From a virus, in the IMG/VR virus record IMGVR_UViG_3300029787_005266, positions 27,043 to 91,042 of that record: 64,000 bases of DNA; one strand, given 5' to 3'. Of the stretch, positions 10,234 through 35,964 are shown piece after piece. The notes under the pieces are model-generated. The model was given only the letters and a program-made list of their open reading frames with translations. It had not been told where the DNA came from and searched no databases. A program made the position numbers and the translations under genes. The first letter of the stretch is position 1. Each line of letters starts with the position of its first letter.

Positions 10234-10239
10234 TAAATA
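10234..10239 (+). promoter_or_regulatory. Late promoter box TAAATA
   Basis: 6 nt upstream of ATG 10246. Confidence 0.6.
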
Positions 10240-10245
10240 CATTAT

Positions 10246-17825: not shown

Positions 17826-18147
17826 AATATATTATCAAGACGAAGAAATTACCACAGTGACAACACAGACTGCAGAAGGTGAATACATTGTGGTTGATTC
17901 AAAAAAATGGCTAGATGTACAAAATAGTCCATCAGCATGGAAAGTAATTGATAAAACACTGGAGAAAAAGATTATAGATCGTACAAATGGAAAAAAGAAA
18001 AAGAAATTTACAGTGAAAGGTCATGACACATTTCCAGGATGGGTAATAAAAAAATATCAACTGTATACAGCCATAGAATATGCTATTGAGGAACCTGAGT
18101 GGTTTGACCCCGAAAAACATGCAGTAGTAGGATATGAAGATGATTGA
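17803..18147 (+). CDS. Hypothetical protein
   Basis: Overlap-coupled ORF within operon. Confidence 0.5.
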   Translation: MNMPLEYRIYYQDEEITTVTTQTAEGEYIVVDSKKWLDVQNSPSAWKVIDKTLEKKIIDRTNGKKKKKFTVKGHDTFPGWVIKKYQLYTAIEYAIEEPEWFDPEKHAVVGYEDD

Positions 18148-19018: not shown

Positions 19019-20367
19019 CAGATGCCAACAAGGCAAAACTAAAACTAGATAAGATTTCTGATTCTATGTGTCTGGCAAAATGGATGCAGACTTCTTTACA
19101 CCTTACAAATGGCATGACAAACTCTTGCTATCATCCACCATTACACAAAATAGATGTAGAGCAAATCAAAACAAATCCTTCTAAATTACACAACACTGAT
19201 GAAAAGAAACAGCAACGTGATCTAATGATAAATGGAAAAAGACCAGAAGGTTGTTCATACTGTTGGAAGTTAGAAGATGACAAACAGATGAGTGATCGAC
19301 ATTATAGGTCAGGAGAACCATGGGCAATGGATCATTATCAAAATATTTTAGATAATCCACAAGCAGATATTGTGCCTACATATGTTGAGGTCGATTTCAG
19401 TAATGCATGTAACTTCAAATGTTCATATTGTTCGCCACAATTTTCAACTGCGTGGGCAAAAGAAACAGAAGAACATGGATCATGGCCAACATCAACACCA
19501 CATAATGATCCAGCACATTTTAAAGGTGACAGAAAAGTTATGCCACAAAATGATAATCCATATGTTGAAGCATTTTGGAAATGGTGGCCAGAACTGTATC
19601 CACAATTACGTCATTTTAGAATGACAGGTGGTGAACCTATGATGGATAAAAATACATTTAGGGTGTTTGATTATGTAATAGAAAATCCAAAAAAAGATTT
19701 GCATTTAAACGTAACTTCTAATTTTTGTCCACCTACTCCTGCACTAGGTGACAGATACTTTAACATGGTAAAAACAATGTGTGATGGAGCGATGATAGAA
19801 CACTTCATGCAATTTGTATCTTTAGATGCTTGGGGAGAAAGAGCAGAGTATATAAGAAACGGAATGGATTTTGGCACTGTATGGTCAAACGTACACAGAT
19901 ACTTGCATGATATTAAAGGTTACAATTCTATTACATTTATTATTACAATGAACAATCTTAGTGTGTCTAGTTTAAAAGAATTATTAGAAAACATTTTAAG
20001 ATTAAGAGAACAATATTCTACAACATATCAACGGGTGTGGTTCGACACACCTATTTTAAGGTTTCCCATATGGCAACATATAGGATTGTTGGACGAATCC
20101 TTTAACCATTATTTCGAGGAGGCTATAGAGTTTATGGAGCAACACCGACATGACTCTAACATGGCAGGGTTTAGAGATTTTGAAATTGCTAAACTTACTC
20201 GGACATACCGCATAATGCAACAAGGACTGGACAACAAGGAACAACACCTAGCAAACTTTTGGCGTTTCTTTCGAACTCATGACTCGAGACGTGAAACAGA
20301 TTTGTTAGGTGTTTTTCCAGAATACAAAGATTGGTTTAAACAATGTCAACAAGCAACGAAGATTTAA
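19000..20367 (+). CDS. Radical SAM enzyme with N-terminal twitch/SPASM-like domain (1 of 5)
   Basis: CNFKCSYC, GGEP; N-terminal CLAKW...SCYH...CSYC. Confidence 0.85.
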   Translation: MSSDYLTDANKAKLKLDKISDSMCLAKWMQTSLHLTNGMTNSCYHPPLHKIDVEQIKTNPSKLHNTDEKKQQRDLMINGKRPEGCSYCWKLEDDKQMSDRHYRSGEPWAMDHYQNILDNPQADIVPTYVEVDFSNACNFKCSYCSPQFSTAWAKETEEHGSWPTSTPHNDPAHFKGDRKVMPQNDNPYVEAFWKWWPELYPQLRHFRMTGGEPMMDKNTFRVFDYVIENPKKDLHLNVTSNFCPPTPALGDRYFNMVKTMCDGAMIEHFMQFVSLDAWGERAEYIRNGMDFGTVWSNVHRYLHDIKGYNSITFIITMNNLSVSSLKELLENILRLREQYSTTYQRVWFDTPILRFPIWQHIGLLDESFNHYFEEAIEFMEQHRHDSNMAGFRDFEIAKLTRTYRIMQQGLDNKEQHLANFWRFFRTHDSRRETDLLGVFPEYKDWFKQCQQATKI

Positions 20368-21689
20368 AATATAGAAGAGAGGTCCTAGACCCAAAATCTT
20401 CATCCTTCTGTGGAGCCAAATGGTATAATGCCACTATATGGTTAGGTTCTGGCATGACCACAAGTTGCCATCATCCTTTGCCACACAAAATTGATTTAGA
20501 AGCAGTAAAAAATAATCCCAAAGCTCTGCATAACACACCCGAGAAAAAATTACAACGTGAGCAGATGCAGGCAGGTGAAAGACCTGCAGGTTGTGAATAT
20601 TGTTGGAAAATAGAAGACCTAGGTGATAACAGTATATCTGACAGAGTATACAAATCAAACATATATTCAAATGAAGATTTAGAGACAGCATTTAACACAC
20701 CTTGTCAAAAAGATGTAGATTTACAAACATTAGAAATATCATTTGATAGGACTTGCAATTTTGCTTGTTCTTATTGTAATCCTGCTTTTTCTACTACGTG
20801 GGTAAAAGATATCAAACAACACGGAGCATATGAAAAACTACAATCAGACGGCAGAAATCATTTTACTCATGTACATGAATCATCACAACTGTATGGTTAT
20901 CAAGAATACAATCCCTACATAGAAGCATTTTGGAAGTGGTGGGATTCAGACTTACATCGTACATTGAAAGAATTAAGAGTCACAGGTGGTGAACCTTTGA
21001 TGAGTGCAGACATGTGGAAACTGTTTGATTGGTTCAAGGATAATCATGGCAAGTCAGATACTAGGCTAGCAATTAATTCGAATCTGTGTCCTAAAGACAA
21101 ATTAATGGATCAGTTGATTGAAAAGTCACACTATGTCAAAAACTTCGATGTCTATACTTCAGCTGAAGCAATGGGAACCAGAGCAGAGTATATTAGAGAT
21201 GGCATGGACTTTGCATTATGGAAAAAGAATTGTCTGCGTCTTATAAATGAAGGCAGTTTGTCAGGATTGCATGTAATGATGACTGTGAATGCATTGTGTT
21301 TAGATTCATTGCCAGAAATGATTGATCTCTTAGTAAGTTGGAAACGCAAGTATGGTCCTGATTACCCGAATTTTACTCTCAATATATTACGTTTTCCGTC
21401 ATTTCAGTCAGCAGTAGTATTGCCAACAAGTATCAAAAAAGAATGCATTGAGCAATTAACAAAGCAAACACATGATTATTACAATGATTTGCATGGTATG
21501 GAACTTAATCAAATGCTGAGATTAATAGAATACCTTAAAGAAGTCGAAAGTCCTCATGAGGGAGCGGACAATGTGGATAAATTACAGAGTGACTTCAAGA
21601 ACTTTTATTCACAGTATGATAAACGCAGAGGCAAAGACTTTGCAAATACATTTGGTAACAAAATGGTAACATGGTATGAGCAGTTATAA
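20343..21689 (+). CDS. Radical SAM enzyme with N-terminal twitch-like domain (2 of 5)
   Basis: CNFACSYC, GGEP; CGAKW...SCHH...CEYC. Confidence 0.85.
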   Translation: MSTSNEDLKYRREVLDPKSSSFCGAKWYNATIWLGSGMTTSCHHPLPHKIDLEAVKNNPKALHNTPEKKLQREQMQAGERPAGCEYCWKIEDLGDNSISDRVYKSNIYSNEDLETAFNTPCQKDVDLQTLEISFDRTCNFACSYCNPAFSTTWVKDIKQHGAYEKLQSDGRNHFTHVHESSQLYGYQEYNPYIEAFWKWWDSDLHRTLKELRVTGGEPLMSADMWKLFDWFKDNHGKSDTRLAINSNLCPKDKLMDQLIEKSHYVKNFDVYTSAEAMGTRAEYIRDGMDFALWKKNCLRLINEGSLSGLHVMMTVNALCLDSLPEMIDLLVSWKRKYGPDYPNFTLNILRFPSFQSAVVLPTSIKKECIEQLTKQTHDYYNDLHGMELNQMLRLIEYLKEVESPHEGADNVDKLQSDFKNFYSQYDKRRGKDFANTFGNKMVTWYEQL

Positions 21690-22956
21690 AGACAAAATGC
21701 CCACACAAGTGGATGCTGACAAACTGACAGATAAGCAAAAGTTTTTGTTGAACGATTCTAAATATTTTTGCACACTGCCTTGGACACATTTACACGCTTA
21801 TCCGAATGGAGCCGCATATCCTTGTTGTCTTGCAAAACATGAATTTCCCATTGGGTCTATGAAAGAAAACACTATGAAAGAATTATGGAATAGTGCAGAC
21901 ATGAAAGACATCAGGAAAAACATGTTGAATGAAAAACCATCCAAACAATGTACCAAGTGTTATGAGCAAGAAGAACATGGATGGACGTCAATGCGAGAAT
22001 CGTCTAATATACGTTATGGGCACCACATTGACAAAGTTCCACTTACAAAAGATGATGGAACTTATGATGATGTGAACATGATATATTGGGATATACGTTT
22101 TTCCAATCTGTGCAATTTGTCATGCAGATCCTGTGGCACATGGTTTTCTTCAAACTGGTATGATGACCAAGTAGCATTGTGGGGAGATCCTGGACACCCG
22201 AAAGTTACATATGCTGGCACCACTAAAATGGATGCCTATGAACAACTTATTGAATATTTGCCAATGGTCGAACAGGTATATTTTGCAGGTGGTGAACCTC
22301 TTATTATGGAAGAACATTATAAAATTTTACAAGCTCTTATAGATACAGGCAAAGCTGATAGTGTGCGGTTACTTTACAATACAAATTTAACCAGACTGTC
22401 GTACAAAAAAACAAATGTATTAGATATTTGGCCTGAATTTAAAGATGTGGCAGTAGGGGCATCTTTAGATGCTATGGGGCCGAGAGCAGAACTTATGCGT
22501 AATGGAACAAAATGGGCCGATGTAGAACGTAACAGAGAAGATATGTTGAAAAAATGTCCTGATGTTGATTTTTACATATCGCCAACTGTAGGCATTTTTA
22601 ACTATTCACACATAATTGACTTTCATAATGATTGGGTGCAAAAAGGATTCATCAGAGAAGGTGATATAAATGTAAACATGATACAAGATCCATTACATTA
22701 TAGAATAGATGTAATTACTCCAAAAATGAAAAAAGAAGTTGAACCAAAGTACAAAGAACACATAGAAAAGATTAGGCCAAAAGATCATTTGAATCGAGCC
22801 ACAGGTGGATTTGAATCTGCATTGAATATGATGATGGCCGATGATAGGAGTGATCTTATACCTACTTTCAAAAGAATCACATCACAGTTGGATAGACATC
22901 GTGGACAGGAAACACATGAAATATTTCCTGAGTTGTCGGAGATACTAATTGACTAA
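21676..22956 (+). CDS. Radical SAM enzyme with N-terminal twitch-like domain (3 of 5)
   Basis: CNLSCRSC, GGEP; CTLPW...PCC...CTKC. Confidence 0.85.
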   Translation: MSSYKDKMPTQVDADKLTDKQKFLLNDSKYFCTLPWTHLHAYPNGAAYPCCLAKHEFPIGSMKENTMKELWNSADMKDIRKNMLNEKPSKQCTKCYEQEEHGWTSMRESSNIRYGHHIDKVPLTKDDGTYDDVNMIYWDIRFSNLCNLSCRSCGTWFSSNWYDDQVALWGDPGHPKVTYAGTTKMDAYEQLIEYLPMVEQVYFAGGEPLIMEEHYKILQALIDTGKADSVRLLYNTNLTRLSYKKTNVLDIWPEFKDVAVGASLDAMGPRAELMRNGTKWADVERNREDMLKKCPDVDFYISPTVGIFNYSHIIDFHNDWVQKGFIREGDINVNMIQDPLHYRIDVITPKMKKEVEPKYKEHIEKIRPKDHLNRATGGFESALNMMMADDRSDLIPTFKRITSQLDRHRGQETHEIFPELSEILID

Positions 22957-24109
22957 AATTTGTACATTGCCTTGGATGCATTTAGAAACTACTCCGTTGG
23001 GCGAATATCGACCATGCTGTCTTGCAGAAGAATCAATCAAACGTTCAGATGGTACGCCATACGACATATCAAAAGGTGACACTATCAAAGATGCATTCAA
23101 TTCTGAATACATGGAGAATATGCGTGATGAATTTTTACAAGGTGGACAGCCTGAAACTTGTAGCAAGTGTTGGTCTTTAGAAGAAGCAGGTGGTACATCG
23201 AAAAGGATGATATCAAATGAAAAGTTTGGGATTAACACTGATGAAAAAGGTATTACATTCTTAGATTTAAAACTAGGCAATATTTGTAATTTAAAGTGCA
23301 GAATCTGTGGAGGATTTTCATCGTCTAAATGGGCCGCCGAAGAAATAAAGCAGGGCAGTGAAAATGCTAAAAGCTGGCTCAAAGCAGGCATGTGGCCACG
23401 CAAAACTGATTCATTATGGAACGAAGTTGTTGATATGTTGCCGCAAATAGAACATTTTGAATTTACTGGCGGCGAACCTTTTATGATTCAAGAACATTTT
23501 GACCTGTTAGAAAAAAGTGTTGAACTAGGCTATGCTAAACAGCAAGAAATACATTATAATACAAATGGCACACAGTTTCCAGAATATGCTATGAAACATA
23601 TATGGCCACATTTTAAAGATGTAGAAATAGCATTTAGTATTGATGACATAAGAGCAAGATTTGAATATCAGAGATATGGAGCCAAATGGGATCAAGTGAA
23701 CGAAAATATACGCAAGTTCAATGAATTAAAATCCAACAGTAAAAATATTTCAACACAGATTTGTTGCACAATTAACATCCAAAACATTTATAACTTAGAC
23801 AATATGGCTGATTGGATAAAGCAACAAAACTTTGATTATGTGTTTTACAATTATCTACATGAAGCAAAAGAATGGAATGTGCAATATTTGCCTATTCATT
23901 TGAAGCAAGAAATTAAAAAGAAACTTGAAGCATATGATGGAGACTTATGGCATTATAAACAGATACAAAATGCAATAAACTTTATGATGTCTGCAAATTT
24001 ATATTCAGAAGAAATGGACCATAAACGCAAGATAAAAATAAAACTGAGTGATCAATTTAGAAACGAATCATTTGCAGAAACTTTTCCAGAATTAAAAGAG
24101 TTAGTATGA
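22949..24109 (+). CDS. Radical SAM enzyme with N-terminal twitch-like domain (4 of 5)
   Basis: CNLKCRIC, GGEP; CTLPW...PCC...CSKC; TTG start. Confidence 0.85.
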   Translation: MTKICTLPWMHLETTPLGEYRPCCLAEESIKRSDGTPYDISKGDTIKDAFNSEYMENMRDEFLQGGQPETCSKCWSLEEAGGTSKRMISNEKFGINTDEKGITFLDLKLGNICNLKCRICGGFSSSKWAAEEIKQGSENAKSWLKAGMWPRKTDSLWNEVVDMLPQIEHFEFTGGEPFMIQEHFDLLEKSVELGYAKQQEIHYNTNGTQFPEYAMKHIWPHFKDVEIAFSIDDIRARFEYQRYGAKWDQVNENIRKFNELKSNSKNISTQICCTINIQNIYNLDNMADWIKQQNFDYVFYNYLHEAKEWNVQYLPIHLKQEIKKKLEAYDGDLWHYKQIQNAINFMMSANLYSEEMDHKRKIKIKLSDQFRNESFAETFPELKELV

Positions 24110-25434
24110 GCAAAGATTGGAAAACACCAGAAGAAGGCAATTTAACATTTTGTATGGCTCCATGGACACATACATATTTGTCACCTACATCTGAAAGACG
24201 TCTGTGTTGTGCTTCTACTGAGCCTGCACAAAGTTTTGAACAATACATTGATACATCTGAAGGCACAAACGAATATAATCCGATGTCTTTACCAGCATGG
24301 TGGAACAGTGATCATATGAAGTCTGTAAGGCAAAGAATGCTTAAGGGCGAGATGTTGCCAGAGTGTCAAGTGTGCAATCACAACATATTACATACTAGTC
24401 CTTACAGAAAACATTTCAATCAACTGTTTGAAAATTTAATTAAAGAAGCATACCAAAAAACAAATTCAGATGGCAGTACAGATATGCCAGTTGTATCTTT
24501 TGATTATAGATTTTCAAACTTGTGTAATTTTATGTGTAGAATGTGCGGATCAAATCTGTCCTCTAGTTGGGAAACTGAAGAAAGAAAATACATTGAAAAT
24601 TTTGACAAAGTTCGACCATGGGCAAGTAAAGAAGTAAAAAAAGCAACTGCAGAATTTGTCGCTAACATGGCAGAACCAGAATTTGAACATGCTATAAAAA
24701 ATAAACAAATCCGTGAAGTGTATTGGGTAGGTGGAGAACCATTGATGTATCATCAACATTGGAAGTTCATGAAAATGATTGTGGACACAGGACAAGCCGG
24801 TAATGTGTATGCAAGGTATAACACTAATTTAAGTAGGATAGTGTTCAAAAATTTAAACCTGTTTGACGATGTACTTTCAAAATTTAGTGCATGGGAAGTG
24901 TGTGCAAGTATAGATGGCACAGGCCCTACAGGCGAATATATTAGATCAGGTTTAGATTGGGAGAAATGGTTAGACAATTGGAAACATGCACACAAGTTTC
25001 AAAACGGTCGGAATAAAATATTAAATTTAGACTTCACTATAACCACAGCAGGAATATGGGAAATAGAAAAAATGTTCGAACTAAGTTTAGAATATAATGT
25101 ACCTATTATTGCAAAACAAACTTTCGCATTCAGTTCCGAAGTATTAATGAGTTGCAGAGCAATACCTAAACACATTTTACAAAGAATATTTTCTAACATT
25201 TTAGAAAGAATAGAGCCACGAGCAACAAAAAAACAAAAAGGTTTAGTGGATCAACTAAAACACATGATACAACAAGGACATTTTGTTGATGACTACCCTG
25301 ATGATTATGAAGAAGGAATAAAAGACGGCAAAGAATTTATTTTACACATGGAAAGTAGAAGAAAAAATCCTGTCACAATGCGTGAAATAATGTGGAAAGA
25401 CAAAGAACTAGGAGAATGGTATGACTCAATATAA
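24106..25434 (+). CDS. Radical SAM enzyme with N-terminal twitch-like domain (5 of 5)
   Basis: CNFMCRMC, GGEP; CMAPW...LCC...CQVC. Confidence 0.85.
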   Translation: MSKDWKTPEEGNLTFCMAPWTHTYLSPTSERRLCCASTEPAQSFEQYIDTSEGTNEYNPMSLPAWWNSDHMKSVRQRMLKGEMLPECQVCNHNILHTSPYRKHFNQLFENLIKEAYQKTNSDGSTDMPVVSFDYRFSNLCNFMCRMCGSNLSSSWETEERKYIENFDKVRPWASKEVKKATAEFVANMAEPEFEHAIKNKQIREVYWVGGEPLMYHQHWKFMKMIVDTGQAGNVYARYNTNLSRIVFKNLNLFDDVLSKFSAWEVCASIDGTGPTGEYIRSGLDWEKWLDNWKHAHKFQNGRNKILNLDFTITTAGIWEIEKMFELSLEYNVPIIAKQTFAFSSEVLMSCRAIPKHILQRIFSNILERIEPRATKKQKGLVDQLKHMIQQGHFVDDYPDDYEEGIKDGKEFILHMESRRKNPVTMREIMWKDKELGEWYDSI

Positions 25435-27255: not shown

Positions 27256-28292
27256 TAGTAGACTCAGTCACAGAGTGTTATGATCTTAATGCATCAGGGC
27301 ATGTAAATTTGCACGAAACATTTCCATCTTTGAAAGATGACCTCCGTGCCTACTTTATCAGATGCAATAAACAAGGAATTAATCCTATTATAGATTTCAC
27401 CAATGAAGGGTATGGATTGTATGCCAATGGTGCGTGGCCAATCATTGAAAGTGTTGCCGAAGAATGTGGGATCAAAATGAATAGATTGACTTTGTACATA
27501 TCTGATATGTTTGCATCATATCCTTGCAACACAATGCCTTTAGTGAATGATAAATGGTTACAAGTGTATACACCAGATTCTGAACCAGATGTGACCGACA
27601 GACTTTTTAAAAAATTTGGTCATTTTATAGGAAGAGCATCACCAGATAGGCTGGCTATGCATGTGATGTTAGAAAAATATCAAAACGATATGTGGTACTC
27701 TATATGGAATGGCTGGGATTTTGATGACAATTTTTTTGCTAGATTAAAAAATTACATTCCATTCAAATTTGACAAAGGCAAACTGATAGGAAGAGCAAGA
27801 GAAGTAGCGGAACAATTACCTCAAAAAAATACATATGAAACTCCTAGTAAAGATGATTTTTATGAATGGCCTAGACAAGTTGCTCCATTACATTTTTATT
27901 ACAAAAATATGTTTGTTGATATTGTAAGTGAAACAGATCTTGACACTTGCTTCACTACAGAAAAAACTTTGAGACCTATTATTTTCAAAACACCATTTTT
28001 GTTAATGGCAGGCAAAGGCACACTGCAAAAATTAAAAGAGATTGGTTTTAAAACATTTAACAATTGGTGGTCAGAAGATTACGACAGGTATTCACACAGA
28101 CAAAGATTGGAAAAAATATTAGACATTGTAGATTGGATTAGTGTACAATACAATGTAAAGGAATTAAAAGCAGAAATGAATAGCATTTTGGAATACAATT
28201 ATAATCATTATGTGAATCAAACGTGGATTCCTATGGCAAAAGAGATGGGTATTCCGGACAGTGCATTTGGAGACACAAGAACATGGGAGTAG
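27252..28292 (+). CDS. Paralogue of 26218 (GT10-like C-terminus)
   Basis: VDIVSET...FTTEKTLRPI...PFL...IGFKTF..WWSEDYD; start moved to ATG 27252 (ATGA overlap). Confidence 0.5.
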   Translation: MIVDSVTECYDLNASGHVNLHETFPSLKDDLRAYFIRCNKQGINPIIDFTNEGYGLYANGAWPIIESVAEECGIKMNRLTLYISDMFASYPCNTMPLVNDKWLQVYTPDSEPDVTDRLFKKFGHFIGRASPDRLAMHVMLEKYQNDMWYSIWNGWDFDDNFFARLKNYIPFKFDKGKLIGRAREVAEQLPQKNTYETPSKDDFYEWPRQVAPLHFYYKNMFVDIVSETDLDTCFTTEKTLRPIIFKTPFLLMAGKGTLQKLKEIGFKTFNNWWSEDYDRYSHRQRLEKILDIVDWISVQYNVKELKAEMNSILEYNYNHYVNQTWIPMAKEMGIPDSAFGDTRTWE

Positions 28293-29731
28293 TTTGGGGA
28301 GCATCAGCACACTTTCATGATGCAGGCTTGAGTGTGGTCAAAGATGGCGAAGTTGTATTTGGTGCTCATGCAGAAAGATATTCTGGAGTAAAACATGACA
28401 AGTTGCTAAATCAAGACATTATCAACGAAGCACTTACTTGGGGTAGACCTGATGTAGTTGCATGGTACGAAAAACCATGGAAGAAGAATATTAGAAAGTT
28501 ATGGACTGGCGAATGGCGGTATTCAAAATTTGATACACACCCAAGCAAGTATCTTAAACAGTTTGGCATTGATGCTCCAGTTAAATTGTATGATCATCAT
28601 TACACTCATGCAACAGCAGGATATTTTACATCACCATTTAAAGAAGCAGTCATTGTGGTAGCAGATGCTATTGGAGAGTTTGAATGTATTACTATATGGG
28701 AGGCAAAAGGGAATAAACTAAAAAGACTGGCGTCATGGTCTTATCCTCACTCACTAGGTTTGTTATATTCAGCATTTACTCAAAGATGCGGATTGAAGCC
28801 TATGGATGAAGAGTATATCACAATGGGAATGGCAGGTTGGGGTGAACCTAAGTACGCACATCAAATCAAACAAGAATTTGTAAATCCGACACACTTTCAT
28901 TTGAAGAAAAATGTACACAAAGGAATAGGCAACTGGATGCCAGATGCACAAGTGGAGGATATTGCGGCTTCAATACAACAAGTCACAGAAGAGTGCATTG
29001 ATCAATTGATGTGTACTGCCTACACATGGACAAGAATGAACAATGTGGTTTTTATGGGTGGTGTTGCTCTCAACTGTGTGGCCAACCATTTGTTGCATGA
29101 TTACTTTGATAATGTGTGGATAATGCCCAATCCAGGAGATTGTGGATCTTCACTAGGAGCCGCACTTGCACACCGAGGATCACACGTTAAATGGCCGGGG
29201 CCGTACATTGGCACCAATATTGATAATCCATACCCTGTAGAGGCGTTATTGCACGAATTAGACACCAAAAAGATAGTGGGAGTAGCGTCTGGTCGTGCTG
29301 AATTTGGGCCACGTGCTTTAGGACACAGATCATTGTTAGCAGACCCTAGAGGCACTGAAATTAAAGATCAAGTGAACGCAATAAAACGCAGACAAAAGTT
29401 CAGACCATTTGCTCCTGCAATACTGGAAGAACATGTCCAACACAACTTTAAAATGTGTACCAGTCATTCACCTCATATGCAGTTTGTGGGCGAGTGTTTA
29501 AAACCAGATTTGTATCCAGCAATCATTCATGTGGATGGCACCAGCAGAGTACAAACAGTGGGCAAAAATGATTCAACAGGATTCAGAGCATTGTTAGAAG
29601 CTTGGTATGCTAAAACAGGTTGTCCTATGTTGTTGAATACGTCACTAAACATCAGAGGTGAGCCAATGGTAAACACAAGAGAAGATGCTGATCGCTTCGA
29701 AGAAAAATATGGTGTAAAGGTTTGCTCGTGA
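28283..29731 (+). CDS. O-carbamoyltransferase, NodU/CmcH/TobZ family
   Basis: HDAG, ERYS..KHD, HH..HA, GGVALNC, EFGPRALGHRS.LADP, KRRQ.FRPFAP, HVDGTSRVQTV, LLNTSLN; start at ATG 28283 after GGAG. Confidence 0.9.
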   Translation: MGVVWGASAHFHDAGLSVVKDGEVVFGAHAERYSGVKHDKLLNQDIINEALTWGRPDVVAWYEKPWKKNIRKLWTGEWRYSKFDTHPSKYLKQFGIDAPVKLYDHHYTHATAGYFTSPFKEAVIVVADAIGEFECITIWEAKGNKLKRLASWSYPHSLGLLYSAFTQRCGLKPMDEEYITMGMAGWGEPKYAHQIKQEFVNPTHFHLKKNVHKGIGNWMPDAQVEDIAASIQQVTEECIDQLMCTAYTWTRMNNVVFMGGVALNCVANHLLHDYFDNVWIMPNPGDCGSSLGAALAHRGSHVKWPGPYIGTNIDNPYPVEALLHELDTKKIVGVASGRAEFGPRALGHRSLLADPRGTEIKDQVNAIKRRQKFRPFAPAILEEHVQHNFKMCTSHSPHMQFVGECLKPDLYPAIIHVDGTSRVQTVGKNDSTGFRALLEAWYAKTGCPMLLNTSLNIRGEPMVNTREDADRFEEKYGVKVCS

Positions 29732-29732
29732 C

Positions 29733-32700
29733 ATGTATGACAGATATACATTCGAAGGACAAATTACGCAACATAAATCCAACACAGAATGGTATTGGCT
29801 CACAGACAGTCGAGTAGATTATTCTAATTTTAATTTTGATTATGATCCTCCCGATTGGGAAAAACAATTTATACATGCTTTTGGAGATCAACACTCTGTG
29901 CATGGCGGAACCTATCTGGTGCACATCAATCATAATAATGAAACAGACTTTAAATTTGTACCGCAAACAGTAACAAGAAATCAAGCATTTGATGTTTTTA
30001 CTGATACACATGAAATAGACTTTCAATCGGAAACATCAACTGAATGGTATTGGGTGACCAGTCCATTTAATGATTACGTCAATTTTGATTTTACATGGCA
30101 TCCTGCATTATGGGAGAAAAATTTTGTTCATGTTTTTCCTGATCAACACTGCACACATGGCGGCACTTACATTATCCATAAGGATTGTGACTTGGCAAAC
30201 ATTGAATACAAGTATCACAACTTTATCATCCAACGCACTGGATACAATCACCTTCATTGGAAAACTGATGACAGAAATTCATATGCTGGATTCGATTTTA
30301 CTTGGCATCCAGAACCATGGGAAGAAAAATATGTGCATTGTTTCGGCGATCAACATGCTGATGATTCACGCACATATTATGTTGCAGATGAAGTCGACTT
30401 TGCCAATGCAAGGAAATATTATCATCCTAAGACTGTAACATGTCACAAACCATTCCAAAGATTTCATGGTGTAAAAATACAGAACTGTATTACTGAAGAT
30501 GAATACTACTGGATAACCAGCGATGGCAATGATTACTCTAATTTTGATTTTACTTGGCATCCAGATGAATGGCAAAGCAAGTACGTTCATTGCTTCGGAG
30601 ATCAATACTCAGATGATGCTGGAACATACCTCGTGCATCGTGACACTGACATAAACAATGCCAGAACACAGTATCATCCAAATGCCATTACCCGTACAGA
30701 ATCATTTGAACAGTTTCATGTCAAAGGACTGCAAAAATGTGACACCAAACAAGATTGGTATTGGATTGTGGATGATGCAAATGATTACCAAAATTTTGAT
30801 TTCAAATGGCATCCAGAATCATGGAAGGGCAGATATGTCCACTGCTTCGGAGATCAACATTCTGACGATGCAAACACCTATCTAGTACCAAAAGACTGTG
30901 ATTTGGATAATGTCAAAGTAGAGTATCATAATCATGCTTTTCAACGTGTTAAACCATGGAATAGATTCAAAATAAGCGGTCTTAAGACGGTGTATTCGGA
31001 CACGGACTGGTACTGGATCATCTCCGATGAAAATGACTATACAGACTTCGATTTTACATGGCATCCAGAGAGTTGGCAAACCAAATATGTGCATTGTTTC
31101 GGTGATCAACATGCAGATGATTCCAACACATATCTGGTTCACAAAAGTCATGATATTACCAATATCAGATGGCAATATCACCCTGACACTGTTGTCAGAA
31201 CTGCTAAATTTGATATCATAGAATATGATGGAGAATTAAATCATCATGCAGAATCTGATACTGAATGGTATTGGTTAACAAGCAAAGAAAATGATTACTC
31301 TGATTTTGATTTCACATGGCATCCTGAAACAGCACAACGCAAATTTGTTCACGTGTTTGGAGATCAATTTTCAGAAACTTCAGGCACATATTTGATCAAT
31401 AAAGAATTGGATCCAAACGATTGTAGACAACAGTTCCATGAGAACAAAGTTGTACGCAAAACCACAGGCACAATACACAGATGTTCCAACATGATGCCTG
31501 ATGACGAAGGCACAAGATTGTTTTCAAACTTGTTTAATTTCATAAAACGAATAGCAAACAACAGTGATGAAAGAAACATTTGGATTACTGCTTCTATTGT
31601 AGATGATGCTAATTTTGATTACAAATGGCATCCTGCTGACTGGGAATCGAAGTATATTCATGTGTTCCACAATGAACAATCTGAATACGGATATGTAATG
31701 TGGGTGCCACTTGCTGAGTTCAAAAAGCAAATGGACACCTTGCAAAAATTAGAATGGTTCGATACAATAAAATATCATGCAACTGATTTGACCTATCATG
31801 ATCTTCCAGTGAACGAATATTCATTAGGCAAAGGCGCCGCCGAAAAGATACAACAACACACATTTACTCATCACTATGAATGGTTTGTGGAAGACAGTGT
31901 GCTCCAACAAAACTTGCCAAACTATTATCCTGCAAGATGGGACGAAGTCAACATCAATTGTTTTGGTACACATAAGCAAATGTTGTTAGTGCCACGTGAA
32001 GCAAAATCATTTGTAGTCGATCAAGTGTATGATTACCCTGCCATTGATACTCACCAACATAATATATCAACGCAACCTAATGACATAATTTTTATATCAT
32101 ATGATGAACCTATGGCTGATGAAAAATATGAACAACTCATAAAAAAATATCCAAGGGCCAAAAGGGTGCATGGGATAAAAGGTCAGACACAGGCTTATCA
32201 CAAAGCGGCAGAAACATCGAACACTGATTATTTTTTTGCTGTGTTCCCTAAGTTAGATATTCATCCTGACTTTGATTTTGAATATCAAGTTGATAGATTG
32301 CACAATCCCTGTCATTGGATTTTCAACAGTTTCAATCCAGTGAATGGTTTAAAATATGGTCATGAAGGTATAATTCTTTACAATAAAAATCTAGTGCTGG
32401 AAACGACAGATCCTGGAATAGACTTCACAATGTCCAAGGCACATGATTTTGAAGACATTATGAGTACCACAATGCTGTTCAATCAAGATCCATGGTTAGC
32501 ATGGAGAACTGCTTTCCGTGAAGTGGTTAAACTGAATTACTTTAATAGTCAAAAACCTGACAAGATTACACAGGAACGTTTACAGATTTGGTGTACAGTG
32601 GCGGAAGGTGAAAACAGCGAGTGGGTATTGCAAGGAGCGAATGACGGTCAAAAGTTTTTCGAAAGTGGTCAAGATCTAAAATTAAGTTATGATTTTGAAT

Positions 32701-32735
32701 GGTTGAAGAATCAGTTTAATAAGGTTTCCATTTAA
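29733..32735 (+). CDS. 1000-aa protein with ~8-9 W/F/H-rich repeats and a C-terminal GT2-like domain
   Basis: Repeat WYW..S..NDY..FDFTWHP..W..KYVHCFGDQ; C-terminal DIIFISYDEP...RVHGIKG...NGLKYGHEG...AWRTAFREVVK is homologous to 18134. Confidence 0.7.
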   Translation: MYDRYTFEGQITQHKSNTEWYWLTDSRVDYSNFNFDYDPPDWEKQFIHAFGDQHSVHGGTYLVHINHNNETDFKFVPQTVTRNQAFDVFTDTHEIDFQSETSTEWYWVTSPFNDYVNFDFTWHPALWEKNFVHVFPDQHCTHGGTYIIHKDCDLANIEYKYHNFIIQRTGYNHLHWKTDDRNSYAGFDFTWHPEPWEEKYVHCFGDQHADDSRTYYVADEVDFANARKYYHPKTVTCHKPFQRFHGVKIQNCITEDEYYWITSDGNDYSNFDFTWHPDEWQSKYVHCFGDQYSDDAGTYLVHRDTDINNARTQYHPNAITRTESFEQFHVKGLQKCDTKQDWYWIVDDANDYQNFDFKWHPESWKGRYVHCFGDQHSDDANTYLVPKDCDLDNVKVEYHNHAFQRVKPWNRFKISGLKTVYSDTDWYWIISDENDYTDFDFTWHPESWQTKYVHCFGDQHADDSNTYLVHKSHDITNIRWQYHPDTVVRTAKFDIIEYDGELNHHAESDTEWYWLTSKENDYSDFDFTWHPETAQRKFVHVFGDQFSETSGTYLINKELDPNDCRQQFHENKVVRKTTGTIHRCSNMMPDDEGTRLFSNLFNFIKRIANNSDERNIWITASIVDDANFDYKWHPADWESKYIHVFHNEQSEYGYVMWVPLAEFKKQMDTLQKLEWFDTIKYHATDLTYHDLPVNEYSLGKGAAEKIQQHTFTHHYEWFVEDSVLQQNLPNYYPARWDEVNINCFGTHKQMLLVPREAKSFVVDQVYDYPAIDTHQHNISTQPNDIIFISYDEPMADEKYEQLIKKYPRAKRVHGIKGQTQAYHKAAETSNTDYFFAVFPKLDIHPDFDFEYQVDRLHNPCHWIFNSFNPVNGLKYGHEGIILYNKNLVLETTDPGIDFTMSKAHDFEDIMSTTMLFNQDPWLAWRTAFREVVKLNYFNSQKPDKITQERLQIWCTVAEGENSEWVLQGANDGQKFFESGQDLKLSYDFEWLKNQFNKVSI
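29787..31720 (+). repeat. Eight ~75-100 aa intragenic tandem repeats
   Basis: Recurrent TTTGATTTTACWTGGCATCC-like and TTYGGNGATCAA DNA cores at ~240 bp spacing. Confidence 0.85.
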
Positions 32736-33921
32736 GTTCTAGTTTTTCTAACCAACTATTTCCTGCATGTTTGGCTTCATCAACTAATAATGTTATAGTG
32801 TGATCAAACGCATCCAAAAATCCTACGTCAAATGGTCTTGGTTTAATCCCAGGGCCTGACAGATGTTTTTTCACAATATCTTCAATCGAATCTTTTTTGA
32901 CGTTTCCGATGATATATCTGTCACTGCCTGGTCTGTCAAGAAATCCACTTTCATGATACACATACTGATTACCTAGACTATCCACAGCAGACGCCACTTG
33001 TGGAAAGCCATACCCGTCCATTTGTTCATAGTTTGCCATTTTGATTGGTCCGTCAATCAATCCATGTCTTACAGGATGTAATGCATAACCATAATCAATG
33101 TGTAGATGTTTCATGTCATCGTCGTTTGCACATTCTTCTTCAACTTCTAGAAATATATTGTGTAATGTGCTTCTCTCTACATTAGAAATATAATTGTTAC
33201 TCTGGCTAAAATCTTCCCGTAGTGTTATGAATGATATTTTGTAGTCACTGACTGCATTTATTTGTTTGATCATACGGAAAACTTTTTTTAGATCATTGCT
33301 GTGTCCGGGCAATATTATCCAGTTGACTCCTAGTCGTAAAGGTTTGTCTGACTCTGACATACGTTTACAAAAATTCTGTAAGTTTTTTACAACCATTTTA
33401 TGTGACTTATTATTTTTTGTGACTGAATAATAACTTTGATCATCGTATCCATAGAGACTTACACGCATCACTTCTAGGTCTAAGATACCAATCTGTTTAT
33501 CTACAAAGTTTTCTGTTAATGCGTAACCGTTGGTGTACAGTTGCATTTTAAATCCTTTTGAATTTCCGTAACGAATAATCTCCCCAATGTGTGGGTTTGT
33601 CAAAGGTTCTAATCCTCCACTTATTCTGAATCGGTCTTGCCAATTTTTGTCTGACTTAGGATCCTGATCAATAATGCTTTTGAAAACATCCAAACTGTCA
33701 TCAGCAATAGATCTTTCATATTTTGCATCATAGTTTCTTCCGCAAAAAGTACAAAAGAATTGACAGTTAAGGCCTGGATATAATCCTATTCGGTTAGGAT
33801 ATTTGTAAGTGTTGTTTACTGCATGTGACAGAGAACCATTGGCTAACAACGGTAATATTGTGTTGTTCCAGTATTTGTTTGCTTGATCTTCGCCTTTGGT
33901 ATGTTTATACCCTAATCTCAT
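32716..33921 (-). CDS. desII: DesII-like radical SAM NDP-4-amino-4,6-dideoxyhexose deaminase (ammonia-lyase)
   Basis: Colinear with DesII motifs as I recall them: YWxNTxLPL, GLYPGxxCxFxCxFC, SGGLEPLTNP, YTNxxALTE, RxSLYG, REDF/YS, LHIDYGYAL, PQVA..VD.LG, RYIxG, DxFD. Confidence 0.85.
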   Translation of the reverse strand: MRLGYKHTKGEDQANKYWNNTILPLLANGSLSHAVNNTYKYPNRIGLYPGLNCQFFCTFCGRNYDAKYERSIADDSLDVFKSIIDQDPKSDKNWQDRFRISGGLEPLTNPHIGEIIRYGNSKGFKMQLYTNGYALTENFVDKQIGILDLEVMRVSLYGYDDQSYYSVTKNNKSHKMVVKNLQNFCKRMSESDKPLRLGVNWIILPGHSNDLKKVFRMIKQINAVSDYKISFITLREDFSQSNNYISNVERSTLHNIFLEVEEECANDDDMKHLHIDYGYALHPVRHGLIDGPIKMANYEQMDGYGFPQVASAVDSLGNQYVYHESGFLDRPGSDRYIIGNVKKDSIEDIVKKHLSGPGIKPRPFDVGFLDAFDHTITLLVDEAKHAGNSWLEKLELKWKPY

Positions 33922-35050
33922 TGTGATAGAATTCCTTAACCTTTTGTATTATATAATCCTGTTGATCTGTGTCTAGGTGTTGACTTGAAGGCAAACTCAC
34001 AATGTGTTTGCTAACTTGCTCGGTGATAGGTAAAGGATGCCGTACGCCATTATGGTAAGGTTCAAACACATGACAAGGATGTCTGAAGTGTATGTTTGTG
34101 TAAATTTCTTGGTCTTTAAGCCACTGCATTAATTCGTCACGTCTTTCTACTTGGATATTATAAACGTAGAAAGTCATCTTGCTCCATGGCACTTCAGGCA
34201 ATGTTTTTATTATGCCTTTCACATCTTTGAATGCATCATTATATTTTCTGCAAATTTCTTGTTTCTTATTCATCCATTTATCTACATAAGGAAGTTTTGC
34301 ACACAACACAGCCGCTTGAATATTATCTATCCTTGTGTTGTAACCAATTTTTTCATATTCGAATCTAACACGTCTTCCATGATCTCTATACATTTTGCAT
34401 TCTTCGATTAAATCTTTCCTCCCCATAACACAGCCAGCATCACCTATGGCCCCTAAATTTTTCACTGGATTAAAACTTACACAAGCAAGATCCACTCCTT
34501 TGACAGCACCTAATTTGGTTCCTAAATAATCTGAACCAAATGCTTGAGCGGCATCTTCGATCAAATACAAATTGTGTTTGTTTTTTATTTCGATAATTTT
34601 GTTTATGTCTGGTGATTGTCCATATATGTCTACAAACAGAATTGCTTTTGTTTTGTCTGTTATAGCATGTTCAATTTTGTCTATGTCTATGTGATAGTAA
34701 TCATCGATGTCAACAAACACAGGAGATGCACCAACTACTGCAATAGATTCTGGAGTACTAACGAATGTATGACTAGGAACTATGACTTCATCGCCTGGTC
34801 CTATACCGCAGGCCTTCAAAGCAATAATCAATGCCATTGTACCACTTCCACATGACGCAACTGATTCACAACCTATGTAGTCCATAATCATTTGTTCTAA
34901 TGTGTCTCGATATCCTGTGGTAGTTCCAAACACTGCATTGCCAGTAATGAAATTGTTTGTGTCTAATACTTCTTGTATTGCTTGATCAATATCGTGTTTG
35001 CATTCTTGATATTGTGATTGTAAATCTGTAAATTCTATAGGTAACTTCAT
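33905..35050 (-). CDS. DegT/DnrJ/EryC1/StrS PLP sugar aminotransferase (DesI-like by context)
   Basis: SGTMAL, GPGDEVIVP, IEDAAQAFG, SFNPVKNLG (PLP Lys), GDAG, SLP. Confidence 0.9.
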   Translation of the reverse strand: MKLPIEFTDLQSQYQECKHDIDQAIQEVLDTNNFITGNAVFGTTTGYRDTLEQMIMDYIGCESVASCGSGTMALIIALKACGIGPGDEVIVPSHTFVSTPESIAVVGASPVFVDIDDYYHIDIDKIEHAITDKTKAILFVDIYGQSPDINKIIEIKNKHNLYLIEDAAQAFGSDYLGTKLGAVKGVDLACVSFNPVKNLGAIGDAGCVMGRKDLIEECKMYRDHGRRVRFEYEKIGYNTRIDNIQAAVLCAKLPYVDKWMNKKQEICRKYNDAFKDVKGIIKTLPEVPWSKMTFYVYNIQVERRDELMQWLKDQEIYTNIHFRHPCHVFEPYHNGVRHPLPITEQVSKHIVSLPSSQHLDTDQQDYIIQKVKEFYHNEIRV

Positions 35051-35964
35051 AATATTGTATCGTGATTAATGTCTTCTAATGCTTGTTTCAAATCAAACTT
35101 ACTGGAATATCCAATTGATTTAAGTTTTGTTATATTTAATGCTCCGCGATTGGGAAAATATTTCTCTCTGTTTACAGGTAAAACTTTGCTCTTACTATTG
35201 TAAAAATTAACCACAGACTCTGCAATTTCTTTTATGGTGAATGTTTGTTCACTGCTGATATTGAATGTTTCATTTTTTACAGTATCCTTTAATGTTAAAG
35301 TTACTGCTTCTATCAGGTCTTTCACATATGTTATATCTGTTGTAGAATCTTGTGCATAAAATATGTCTTGATCTTGTAATGCTGATTTAATAAATTTAGG
35401 CATAAGTCTGTCTGCAATATCGTAATCCCCAAACACACAAATTGGTCTAAAAATAACATAATCAACAGTATCTCTTGTAATTGCTTTTAACAGTTTTTCT
35501 TGTGTAAGTTTTAAACTACCATACAAATTTATAGGTGAACACAAACTGTTTTCATCTGCATCATCTTGATAATTTCCATACACATTTGAACTGCTGAACA
35601 ATATGTATTTTTTTGGTTTGTACGAAAAAGTGTTTACCAGTCCGGTGATCATTGTCTCTGATGCCACAGTCGGATATTGTTCAACTAAACTTACTCTTGG
35701 ATACGATGCAAGATTTATTACAACATCTGGTTGGAAGTCTGTATACAATGAATCAATTTTACTTCTTTCAAGTATTGATCCATTAATAGTGTTGACGTTA
35801 TTCCAATTTTTGATTCTTGAACTGATAATTTTTTGTTTGATAGTTTCGTTCTCAATACCAAATAAAGTAAAATTATCGTAGACGCAAATTTGGTGATCCT
35901 CTTGCAAATGGTTTACTAGGTGGTGCCCGATAAATCCAGCACCACCAAATATAAGGATCTTCAT
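35047..35964 (-). CDS. Extended SDR NAD-dependent sugar epimerase/dehydratase
   Basis: GGAGFIG, SSSNVYG, YGSLK (YxxxK). Confidence 0.85.
   Translation of the reverse strand: MKILIFGGAGFIGHHLVNHLQEDHQICVYDNFTLFGIENETIKQKIISSRIKNWNNVNTINGSILERSKIDSLYTDFQPDVVINLASYPRVSLVEQYPTVASETMITGLVNTFSYKPKKYILFSSSNVYGNYQDDADENSLCSPINLYGSLKLTQEKLLKAITRDTVDYVIFRPICVFGDYDIADRLMPKFIKSALQDQDIFYAQDSTTDITYVKDLIEAVTLTLKDTVKNETFNISSEQTFTIKEIAESVVNFYNSKSKVLPVNREKYFPNRGALNITKLKSIGYSSKFDLKQALEDINHDTIL

What the first reader, a model, noticed from the sequence alone, without database searches (positions are those of the whole stretch)
32716..35964. Phage-encoded SDR + DegT + DesII-like cassette: macrolide-type deoxysugar chemistry in a virus
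Seen: three overlapping genes. The last matches DesII motif by motif (YWxNTxLPL, GLYPGxxCxFxCxFC, SGGLEPLTNP, LHIDYGYAL, PQVA) and lacks only an N-terminal extension. Established: in actinomycete desosamine/chalcose pathways a 4,6-dehydratase, the DesI aminotransferase and DesII convert NDP-glucose to a 3-keto-4,6-dideoxy sugar. Inference: this phage makes an NDP-4,6-dideoxyhexose donor for its own glycosyltransferases. I know of no described phage DesII pathway.
Basis: partly seen in the sequence, partly recalled or inferred. Interest (0 to 1): 0.88.

Follow-up and report, generated by a model that had tools for sequence, protein, structure and literature searches.

The report
DesII-type sugar cassette in giant phage
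A fragment of a very large uncultured marine phage carries a genuine but shortened relative of DesII, the radical enzyme that removes the 4-position group from antibiotic sugars. It is coupled to a sugar aminotransferase and an NAD-type sugar oxidoreductase, so the phage probably makes a rare deoxy-amino sugar for its own glycan machinery, but not by the textbook desosamine route.

Summary
Three overlapping minus-strand genes encode an extended SDR, a DegT aminotransferase and a radical SAM enzyme that is clearly of the DesII family. It scores 322 bits to TIGR04426 and 227 bits to PDB 8HZV, its model superposes at TM 0.85, and every published cluster, SAM-binding and catalytic residue is kept. 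Most of the N-terminal helical domain is missing.

The proposed pathway is only partly supported.
- The SDR lacks the Asp/Glu pair of 4,6-dehydratases in all 10 orthologues.
- The DegT is of the DesV/QdtB class, not DesI. Against the Streptomyces narbonensis des cluster it scores 242 bits to the desV-position gene and 112 bits to the desI-position gene.

The SDR + DesII + DegT core is conserved in at least 16 IMG/VR contigs of huge phages (up to 345 kb), inside a glycan island with GT-A-fold proteins. It is absent from GenBank phages, PHROGs and the searched literature. The phage clade groups with Pelagibacteraceae homologues. Outside actinomycetes, DesII homologues had no DegT in the 8-kb block fetched around them (0 of 46), and those checked pair with oxidoreductases.

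Best reading: the DesII-like enzyme makes an NDP-3-keto-deoxyhexose and the DegT aminates C3.

This scan has already found DesII-type cassettes in other jumbo-phage genomes, with similar verdicts.

The parts
35047..35964 (-). Extended SDR (305 aa). It has GxxGxxG, Asp30 at the end of beta2 (NAD type), and a Ser/Tyr/Lys triad (SSSNVYG ... YGSLK). It has no dehydratase acid/base pair.
   Evidence: Pfam PF01370 1e-31. TIGR01181 98.6 bits against a cut-off of 365. Sequence. Alignment of 10 phage orthologues, all SSSxVYG. Best PDB hits score only 50-70 bits and are epimerase, decarboxylase or dehydratase-like.
33905..35050 (-). DegT-family PLP aminotransferase (381 aa) of the DesV/QdtB/WbpE class. 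It has the PLP lysine (SFNPVK197) and the EDAAQA motif.
   Evidence: PF01041 1.9e-96. PDB: 7b0d 265 bits, QdtB 237, DesV (2oga) 222, WbpE 210, DesI (2po3) 99. Against the S. narbonensis des cluster: desV-position gene 34%/242 bits, desI-position gene 26%/112 bits. Tree.
32716..33921 (-). DesII-family radical SAM enzyme (401 aa), short form lacking most of the N-terminal helical domain. Key residues: C53/C57/C60, GGLE 102-105, R153/S155/Y157, D237, E324, D370.
   Evidence: TIGR04426 322 bits. 8HZV 227 bits. Residue mapping to PMC11434129. AlphaFold model pLDDT 81.7, Foldseek 8hzv_A E 9e-32, TM 0.85, rmsd 2.5 A. Residues invariant across groups.
29733..32735 (+). Context: a 1000-aa protein convergent with, and overlapping by 20 nt, the DesII-like gene. 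Its C-terminal domain is homologous to the 294-aa GT-A-fold protein at 18134-19018. It lies next to the cassette in all relatives.
   Evidence: tblastn self-hit, 28% over 210-233 aa. Synteny. No Pfam match.
28223..29731 (+). Context: carbamoyltransferase, conserved in the island of relatives.
   Evidence: Pfam Carbam_trans_N/C 4e-39 and 4e-51. 48-54% identical copies in relatives.
19000..25434 (+). Context: five consecutive radical SAM paralogues. Pfam finds a SPASM domain N-terminal to the radical SAM domain in two of them (21676-22956 and 22949-24109).
   Evidence: Pfam and PHROGs. Copies in relatives.
18134..19018 (+). Context: 294-aa protein with a GT-A glycosyltransferase-like fold.
   Evidence: AlphaFold model mean pLDDT 65 (N-terminal 170 residues mostly 70-92). 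Foldseek top hit is the PBCV-1 capsid-glycosylating GT 2p6w, E 9e-6; all 49 hits at E<=0.001 are GT-A or nucleotidyltransferase folds.

Best explanation
The trio is a working nucleotide-sugar tailoring module of a huge marine phage. The contig is 91 kb and CheckV rates it 24% complete.

Shown:
- The radical SAM protein is a DesII-family enzyme with an intact cluster site, SAM site and catalytic Glu/Asp.
- The DegT is an intact PLP aminotransferase of the DesV/QdtB class.
- The SDR is an NAD-type extended SDR without dehydratase residues.
- SDR + DesII + this DegT class form the constant core of the cassette across a lineage of huge phages, next to GT-A-fold proteins. In one relative, L005, the DegT frame carries an in-frame stop.

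Inferred mechanism:
- The DesII-like enzyme abstracts H-3 of an NDP-6-deoxyhexose and produces an NDP-3-keto sugar.
- It does so either by eliminating the C4 substituent (NH3 as in DesII, or OH as DesII does in part with TDP-fucose), or by dehydrogenation as DesII does with TDP-quinovose.
- The DegT then transaminates C3, giving an NDP-3-amino-3,4,6-trideoxy- or 3-amino-3,6-dideoxy-hexose that the island's glycosyltransferases use.
- The SDR most likely prepares the DesII substrate from a 4-keto or 4-hydroxy precursor supplied by the host or by phage genes outside the window (ketoreduction or epimerisation).

I put about 0.85 on the general statement (a DesII-type radical deoxy/amino-sugar module for a phage glycan) and about 0.5 on the specific order DesII then DegT at C3.
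For: DesII membership. Catalytic residue mapping against PMC11434129.

DegT class:
- The top PDB matches are QdtB, DesV and WbpE, which I know as C3 aminotransferases; DesI scores only 99 bits.
- In the S. narbonensis des locus the window protein matches the desV-position gene at 242 bits and the desI-position gene at 112 bits. The same two-level pattern recurs in about 50 actinomycete loci.
- The DesI clade is a separate long branch with 100% support.

SDR: no D/E pair in 10 of 10 orthologues.

Conserved core:
- SDR, DesII and a type-A DegT occur in every phage locus whose flanks were long enough, although the L005 copy of the DegT has an in-frame stop. A second DegT (type B) is present in only about half.

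DesII homologues outside actinomycetes:
- None of 46 had a DegT in the 8-kb block fetched around the match, against 53 of 62 in actinomycetes.
- Those checked pair with oxidoreductases, either fused Gfo/Idh/MocA or adjacent. A 4-amino substrate is therefore not a family-wide requirement.

Other support: DesII's side activities on 4-OH substrates are documented (PMC11434129). GT-A-fold neighbours. The stretch recurs near-identically in marine metagenomes from about 11 studies, with 19 runs holding at least half of the sampled words.
Against: - No enzyme activity was tested, and regiochemistry of DegT enzymes cannot be read reliably from sequence.
- If the DegT acts at C3, no encoded source of a 4-amino substrate is visible in this phage. 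The model then needs either host-supplied NDP-viosamine or a non-amino substrate, which no natural DesII homologue has been shown to use.
- If the SDR only prepares substrate, its strict conservation beside a type-B DegT in relatives is not explained.
- One relative, L005, has an in-frame stop in its type-A DegT but an intact type B, so a single aminotransferase of either type may be enough.
- Only 24% of the genome is in hand.
- The nucleotide carrier (dTDP, GDP or UDP) is unknown. Near-complete relatives encode Gmd and GalE but no sugar nucleotidyltransferase.
Confidence: 0.5

Rival explanations
1. A chalcose-like route, the nearest workable form of the first reader's idea. Host dTDP-4-keto-6-deoxyglucose is aminated at C4 by the DegT, which plays DesI's role although it is not of DesI's clade. 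The DesII-like enzyme then deaminates it to the 3-keto-4,6-dideoxy sugar, and the SDR reduces C3. The product is an NDP-4,6-dideoxyhexose.
For: - All three conserved genes are used in one linear path from a near-universal host metabolite.
- At least one DegT is present in every phage locus.
- The catalytic Glu/Asp that are proposed to bind the C4 ammonium are invariant.
- The SDR has a reductase-compatible Ser/Tyr/Lys triad.
- Other lineages have an oxidoreductase fused or adjacent to DesII-like genes, which would fit a lyase-plus-ketoreductase pair.
Against: - The DegT resembles C3 aminotransferases far more than any C4 aminotransferase: 237-265 bits against 96-161 bits in PDB, and 242 against 112 bits in a real des cluster.
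- The SDR has the NAD-type Asp at the end of beta2, typical of epimerases, decarboxylases and dehydratases with tightly bound NAD+, not of NADPH ketoreductases (inference from SDR knowledge).
Confidence: 0.25
2. The cassette does not serve a virion or phage-directed glycan. Its sugar, or a non-sugar product, instead goes to phage DNA hypermodification (a 7-deazaguanine/DpdA-type locus was noted about 10 kb away by another first-stage note) or to a small molecule.
For: - In this window the trio is transcribed with the DUF2201/AAA genes on the minus strand, not with the plus-strand island.
- The DNA polymerase and nucleotide-metabolism genes follow on the same strand.
- Glycosylated DNA bases are known in phages (my own knowledge).
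Against: - In the relatives the trio is co-oriented with, and embedded in, the glycan island (carbamoyltransferase, GT-like protein, radical SAM paralogues).
- The GT-A-fold neighbour's best structural match is a capsid-glycosylating viral GT.
- I did not test for a link to the deazaguanine locus.
Confidence: 0.1
3. The genes are a recently captured host surface-polysaccharide fragment (an auxiliary metabolic gene set) with no phage-specific role, or they are decaying.
For: - The window's DegT is 50-56% identical to many marine metagenome proteins of unknown origin, closer than to most phage type-A copies at 36-41%.
- The phage DesII clade groups with Pelagibacteraceae homologues.
Against: - The DesII and SDR clades are phage-specific, monophyletic and deep (48-98% identity), with all catalytic residues invariant.
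- Synteny is conserved across contigs up to 345 kb.
- The genes are intact and overlapping.
- The Pelagibacteraceae copies are only 34-41% identical.
Confidence: 0.05

Closest known systems
DesII of Streptomyces venezuelae (TDP-4-amino-4,6-dideoxy-D-glucose deaminase; TIGR04426; PDB 8HZV/8HZY)
   Same: Same fold (TM 0.85, 34% identity). CX3CX2C, the GGE, ribose and beta6 SAM motifs, and the catalytic E408 and essential D456 equivalents are all kept.
   Different: - Scores below the equivalog cut-off (322 against 450 bits).
- Belongs to a separate clade from the actinomycete enzymes.
- Lacks about 88 residues of the N-terminal helical domain.
- Has a phage-specific Arg to His change next to the catalytic Glu, and an Arg and a His where actinomycete DesII has Leu and Gln.
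- Has no DesI-clade partner.
- Sits in a phage glycan island, not a macrolide cluster.
DesV / QdtB / WbpE class of NDP-sugar C3 aminotransferases
   Same: These are the best solved relatives of the window's DegT, at 210-265 bits. The PLP lysine and the Asp/Gln motif are present. The gene is translationally coupled to a DesII homologue, as DesV follows DesII in the pathway.
   Different: Only 33-35% identical to actinomycete DesV. In the tree it sits with uncharacterised marine proteins. Regiochemistry is untested.
AprD4/AprD3 (radical SAM diol dehydratase plus NAD(P)H reductase for C3' deoxygenation in apramycin)
   Same: It works like a possible model for the DesII-like plus oxidoreductase pairs. 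A radical SAM lyase makes a ketone that a partner dehydrogenase handles. The pairing with an oxidoreductase (fused or adjacent) recurs in the DesII branch that contains the phages.
   Different: It is a different radical SAM family and uses an aminoglycoside substrate. This is an analogy from my own knowledge plus the mention of AprD4 in PMC11434129, and was not tested.
Virus-encoded nucleotide-sugar pathways (chlorovirus PBCV-1 capsid glycosylation; mimivirus viosamine and rhamnose pathways)
   Same: The virus encodes both sugar-tailoring enzymes and GT-A glycosyltransferases. The best structural match of the island's 294-aa protein is the PBCV-1 capsid GT A64R.
   Different: Those are eukaryotic giant viruses, and they use no radical SAM sugar chemistry (my own knowledge).

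Membership tests
DesII family (TIGR04426, radical SAM NDP-sugar C3-radical lyase) | CX3CX2C cluster motif and the SAM-binding GGE, ribose and beta6 motifs | tested here: met
   C53/C57/C60, GGLE 102-105, R153/S155/Y157 and D237 align to DesII C141/145/148, G187-E190, R238/S240/Y242 and D323. All are invariant in the 11 phage rows and nearly so in the 45 cellular rows: the Asp237 position is Asn in 11 of 12 Acidobacteriota rows.
DesII family (TIGR04426, radical SAM NDP-sugar C3-radical lyase) | Active-site Glu408 and essential Asp456 | tested here: met
   E324 and D370 align to them and are invariant in all groups.
DesII family (TIGR04426, radical SAM NDP-sugar C3-radical lyase) | Overall fold of solved DesII | tested here: met
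   Model pLDDT 81.7. Foldseek 8hzv_A E 9e-32, TM 0.85/0.71, rmsd 2.5 A over 385 columns. The next family, BlsE, scores E 9e-9.
DesII family (TIGR04426, radical SAM NDP-sugar C3-radical lyase) | NCBIfam equivalog score cut-off (450 bits), i.e. same function as macrolide DesII | tested here: not met
   322.1 bits. The protein falls in a separate clade from actinomycete DesII.
DesII family (TIGR04426, radical SAM NDP-sugar C3-radical lyase) | N-terminal six-helix domain | tested here: not met
   The alignment starts at DesII residue 101 and profile position 82. The short form lacks the ~60-aa insert present in the longer phage forms.
DesII family (TIGR04426, radical SAM NDP-sugar C3-radical lyase) | Deamination of TDP-4-amino-4,6-dideoxy-D-glucose | not testable with these tools
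   Needs anaerobic enzymology.
NDP-hexose 4,6-dehydratase (RmlB/DesIV, TIGR01181) | Acid/base pair (Asp-Glu, or Asp-Lys / Ser-Glu variants) directly after the catalytic Thr/Ser | tested here: not met
   The window has SSSNVYG and all nine orthologues have SSSMVYG. The motif rule is from my knowledge of RmlB, Gmd, PseB and CDP-glucose dehydratases.
NDP-hexose 4,6-dehydratase (RmlB/DesIV, TIGR01181) | Family score cut-off | tested here: not met
   98.6 bits against a cut-off of 365.1.
DesI (TIGR04427, dTDP-4-keto-6-deoxyglucose 4-aminotransferase) | Family score cut-off and clade membership | tested here: not met
   145.7 bits against a cut-off of 650. 26%/112 bits to the S. narbonensis desI-position gene. 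The DesI clade is a separate branch with 100% support.
DesV/QdtB-class NDP-sugar 3-aminotransferases | Closest similarity to characterised C3 enzymes; PLP Lys present | tested here: met
   QdtB 237, DesV 222 and WbpE 210 bits. desV-position gene 242 bits. K197 in SFNPVK.
DesV/QdtB-class NDP-sugar 3-aminotransferases | Amino transfer at C3 | not testable with these tools
   Regiochemistry needs an assay. The tree places the protein with uncharacterised marine enzymes.
GT-A glycosyltransferases (for the island's 294-aa protein and the C-terminus of the 1000-aa protein) | GT-A Rossmann-like fold with an acidic metal/nucleotide motif | tested here: inconclusive
   Moderate model (pLDDT 65). All 49 hits at E<=0.001 are GT-A or nucleotidyltransferase folds, but TM is only 0.3-0.4. 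No Pfam hit. Protein atlas lead to GT2 at only 0.87.

The most novel reading that the evidence does not exclude
The phage enzyme and its Pelagibacteraceae, Acidobacteriota, Omnitrophota and cyanobacterial relatives form an uncharacterised, widespread branch of the DesII family. This branch would not need a 4-amino substrate. Partnered with an NAD-dependent oxidoreductase, it would act as a radical dehydratase or dehydrogenase on ordinary NDP-6-deoxyhexoses. That would be a new general route to 4-deoxy or 3-keto sugars. Huge marine phages would have recruited it and coupled it to a C3 aminotransferase to decorate their virions.
Probability: 0.3. Interest if true: 0.8.

Novelty: new variant of a known kind. 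Interest (0 to 1): 0.6.

Why it matters
DesII is the only characterised member of its family and is known only from actinomycete antibiotic sugar pathways. Here the family appears as a conserved gene of a lineage of huge marine phages, in a shortened form and with different partners. It sits next to relatives from SAR11, one of the most abundant ocean bacteria.

If the chemistry is confirmed, it would be, to my knowledge and in the sources searched, the first radical-SAM sugar-tailoring step described in a virus. It would also give a handle on what the large radical-SAM-rich glycan islands of these phages build. And it would test whether DesII-type enzymes deoxygenate non-amino sugars in nature.

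Tried and rejected
- blastn of the trio against GenBank phages found no match.
- The search for related loci on genome contigs with subfamily-specific peptide patterns found nothing. A family-wide motif scan then found 115 cellular loci.
I therefore could not inspect the 192-kb and 291-kb metagenome contigs that carry proteins 82% or more identical to those of the window.
- Full-text searches for the PDB codes 7B0D and 8VR2, to learn what the top structural relatives do, returned only unrelated papers.
- Pfam and PHROGs gave nothing for the six small island ORFs.
- JGI names of DegT and SDR homologues are generic COG names and gave no functional lead.
- Sequencing runs: no RNA holder was listed.
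- I considered the 195-aa gene directly upstream of the SDR as a pathway member. I set it aside because in relatives it travels with DUF2201/AAA and not with the sugar genes.
- I rejected the idea that the type-B DegT of relatives is a DesI orthologue. Four of the five type-B copies form their own clade outside DesI; the fifth, the L009 copy, is a very long branch placed near type A.

Full report
**What is there.** The window is bases 27043-91042 of a 91-kb IMG/VR virus record that CheckV rates 24% complete. The whole genome is therefore probably well over 300 kb. The window starts with virion and tail-fibre genes and ends with a family B DNA polymerase and nucleotide-metabolism genes.

At 32716-35964 three minus-strand ORFs overlap by 4 and 17 nt:
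- a 305-aa extended SDR;
- a 381-aa DegT aminotransferase;
- a 401-aa radical SAM protein (Pfam).

The stop end of the radical SAM gene overlaps by 20 nt the end of a convergent 1000-aa gene. That gene closes a plus-strand island holding five radical SAM paralogues, a carbamoyltransferase and several ORFs with no family match.

**The radical SAM protein is a DesII-family enzyme.**
- It scores 322 bits (E 6e-96) to TIGR04426, against 60 bits for the next family.
- It scores 227 bits (E 5e-66) to the solved S. venezuelae DesII.
- I mapped the residues named in the structure paper (PMC11434129) through that alignment. Present are the three cluster cysteines (C53/C57/C60), the GGE motif (102-105), the ribose motif (R153/S155/Y157), the beta6 Asp (D237), the proposed general base E408 (E324) and the essential D456 (D370).
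- An AlphaFold model built on 20 homologues (pLDDT 81.7) superposes on 8HZV with TM 0.85 and rmsd 2.5 A. The next fold, BlsE, is 23 orders of magnitude weaker in E-value.

It differs from DesII in four ways:
- The score is below the equivalog cut-off of 450 bits.
- About 88 residues of the six-helix N-terminal domain are absent.
- All phage copies have His where every cellular copy has Arg, next to the catalytic Glu.
- Like the other non-actinomycete groups, the phage copies carry an Arg and a His where actinomycete DesII has Leu and Gln.

**The SDR is not a 4,6-dehydratase.** Its catalytic segment reads SSSNVYG...YGSLK, and the nine phage orthologues read SSSMVYG. Known NDP-hexose 4,6-dehydratases carry an acid/base pair right after the catalytic Thr/Ser (TDE in RmlB; my own knowledge), and that pair is missing here. 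The protein scores 98.6 bits to TIGR01181 against a cut-off of 365. Its best solved relatives, at 50-70 bits, are a mixture of epimerases, decarboxylases and dehydratases. An Asp at the end of beta2 (VYDN) points to NAD rather than NADP binding (inference). Its homologues form a tight phage-lineage family, with cellular proteins only at about 30% identity.

**The DegT is of the DesV/QdtB class, not DesI.**
- Its best solved relatives are 7b0d (265 bits), QdtB (237), DesV 2oga (222) and WbpE (210). DesI 2po3 scores 99 bits and other C4 enzymes 96-161 bits. The identities of 2oga and 2po3 are from my own knowledge.
- As an independent check, a family-wide motif scan of GTDB genomes brought in real des-type clusters. 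In Streptomyces narbonensis the gene directly upstream of desII (the desI position) matches the window protein at 26% and 112 bits. The gene at the desV position matches at 34% and 242 bits. The same two-level pattern holds over about 50 actinomycete loci.
- In a tree, the DesI-position genes form one long, fully supported branch. The window protein sits with L007's copy and uncharacterised marine proteins, next to the other phage type-A copies.
- The PLP lysine (K197) and the EDAAQA motif are present, so it is an aminotransferase and not a ColD/E1-type dehydratase.

**A conserved module of a huge-phage lineage.**
- An alignment-based scan of IMG/VR found 16 loci on contigs of 30 to 345 kb, two of them 95-99% complete. 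The DesII homologues come in a short form (60-98% identity) and a long form (about 50% identity).
- In all of these loci the SDR, the DesII homologue, a DegT, a homologue of the 1000-aa protein, the carbamoyltransferase, N-SPASM radical SAM paralogues and a DUF2201/AAA pair lie together. Usually the sugar genes are co-oriented with the island.
- Many relatives carry a second, more divergent DegT (type B) between the SDR and DesII. This gives the order SDR, B, DesII, A.
- Type B is missing in this window, in its near-identical twin L003, and in L007, L004 and L016/L017. In L005 type B is intact while type A has an in-frame stop.
- The constant core is therefore SDR + DesII + at least one DegT. 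Type B is not a DesI orthologue either.
- Five relatives, including the two near-complete ones, have no sugar nucleotidyltransferase. One encodes elsewhere a Gmd-like protein (408 bits, cut-off 415) and a GalE. The nucleotide carrier is open.

**Not described before, as far as I could search.**
- tblastn against 50,697 GenBank phage records found nothing at E 1e-10.
- PHROGs has only generic radical SAM hits at 21 bits.
- Full-text searches for DesII with phage, the enzyme's systematic name, and desosamine with bacteriophage found nothing relevant. A recent huge-phage preprint does not mention these genes.
- The stretch itself recurs near-identically in marine metagenomes of about 11 studies from 2014 to 2024.
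- Homologues come from Tara Oceans samples, including a <0.22 um fraction.
- Within this scan, other agents have already reported DesII-type cassettes in other jumbo-phage genomes with similar verdicts.

**The wider family changes the odds on mechanism.**
- The motif scan recovered 115 cellular DesII homologues. In the tree the phage clade is monophyletic (100) and joins Pelagibacteraceae homologues (98). Actinomycete DesII forms a separate clade beside Acidobacteriaceae. The AT-rich rows were flagged for composition, so this grouping needs a composition-robust check.
- A DegT gene lies within the 8-kb block in 53 of 62 actinomycete loci and in 0 of 46 non-actinomycete loci.
- In the non-actinomycete lineages I inspected, the partner is an oxidoreductase. 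It is a Gfo/Idh/MocA domain fused to the DesII-like domain in an Omnitrophota and a Gloeocapsa genome. It is a separate Gfo/Idh/MocA ORF directly upstream, or an SDR nearby, in Pelagibacteraceae. In the two Acidobacteriaceae loci and the one Elusimicrobia locus inspected the neighbours are glycosyltransferases.
- The catalytic Glu/Asp are invariant everywhere, so they do not separate deaminases from possible dehydratases.
- DesII itself dehydrogenates TDP-quinovose and partly dehydrates TDP-fucose (PMC11434129).

**Most likely mechanism.**
- Shown: three intact, coupled enzymes of the stated classes in a conserved phage glycan island.
- Inferred: the DesII-like enzyme makes an NDP-3-keto-deoxyhexose by C3 radical chemistry. 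The DesV/QdtB-class DegT aminates C3. The SDR acts on the precursor. GT-A-fold proteins of the island then use the product. The 294-aa protein's model best matches the PBCV-1 capsid glycosyltransferase.
It is economical, but it runs against the DegT's class and the SDR's NAD-type signature.

**Limits.**
- No activity data exist.
- Only a quarter of the genome is in hand.
- Both trees were quick searches with SH-aLRT support only.

Noticed in passing
window 19000-25434 (+): Five consecutive radical SAM paralogues. Pfam places a SPASM domain N-terminal to the radical SAM domain in two of them (residues 32-96 and 5-75). Copies are conserved in related huge phages.
   Followed up: partly
window 26218-27255 and 27189-28292 (+): Two adjacent paralogues (35% identical over 313 aa) with no Pfam or PHROG family. 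Weak homologues occur in the islands of relatives.
   Followed up: partly
window 36900-39165 (-): A DUF2201 metallopeptidase/VWA-like protein and a MoxR-type AAA ATPase, plus the 195-aa phrog_15894 protein at 35971-36558. They are conserved beside the sugar cassette in every related contig, in either orientation.
   Followed up: partly
window 44745-45335 (-): A 196-aa ORF matching only two pieces of the DegT profile (positions 25-77 and about 163-223). A similar 205-239-aa gene is conserved in four large relatives. In one of them it lies next to a GalE-like SDR and a KedN5-family B12 radical SAM methyltransferase (L144).
   Followed up: partly
L143:750-1727 (G001, 345-kb relative): A near-complete relative encodes a GDP-mannose 4,6-dehydratase-like protein (408 bits, cut-off 415) far from the cassette. 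This hints that the lineage may work on GDP-linked 6-deoxy sugars.
   Followed up: partly
L067:150-2753 and L103:759-3482: Gfo/Idh/MocA oxidoreductase domains are fused N-terminally to DesII-like radical SAM domains (867 and 907 aa) in an Omnitrophota MAG and a Gloeocapsa MAG. In Pelagibacteraceae the two are separate adjacent genes (L076, L117).
   Followed up: yes
L026, L057 (Acidobacteriaceae MAGs): In these two loci, DesII homologues sit directly before WecG/TagA-type and Bac_transf sugar transferases, with no DegT gene in the 8-kb block. No DegT was found in any of the 24 Acidobacteriota loci.
   Followed up: partly
L005 (IMGVR_UViG_3300018428_005148), about 9179-10250: The type-A DegT downstream of DesII carries an in-frame TAA, while a second DegT upstream is intact. 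This is either a sequencing error or ongoing loss of one aminotransferase.
   Followed up: no
window 32716-33921, residue 323: All 11 phage DesII homologues have His where all 45 cellular homologues have Arg (DesII R407), directly before the catalytic Glu.
   Followed up: partly
window 50023-51075 and 55813-58446 (-): An IMPDH/GMP-reductase-family protein (5.7e-66) and a family B DNA polymerase. No tRNA genes were found in the 64 kb.
   Followed up: no
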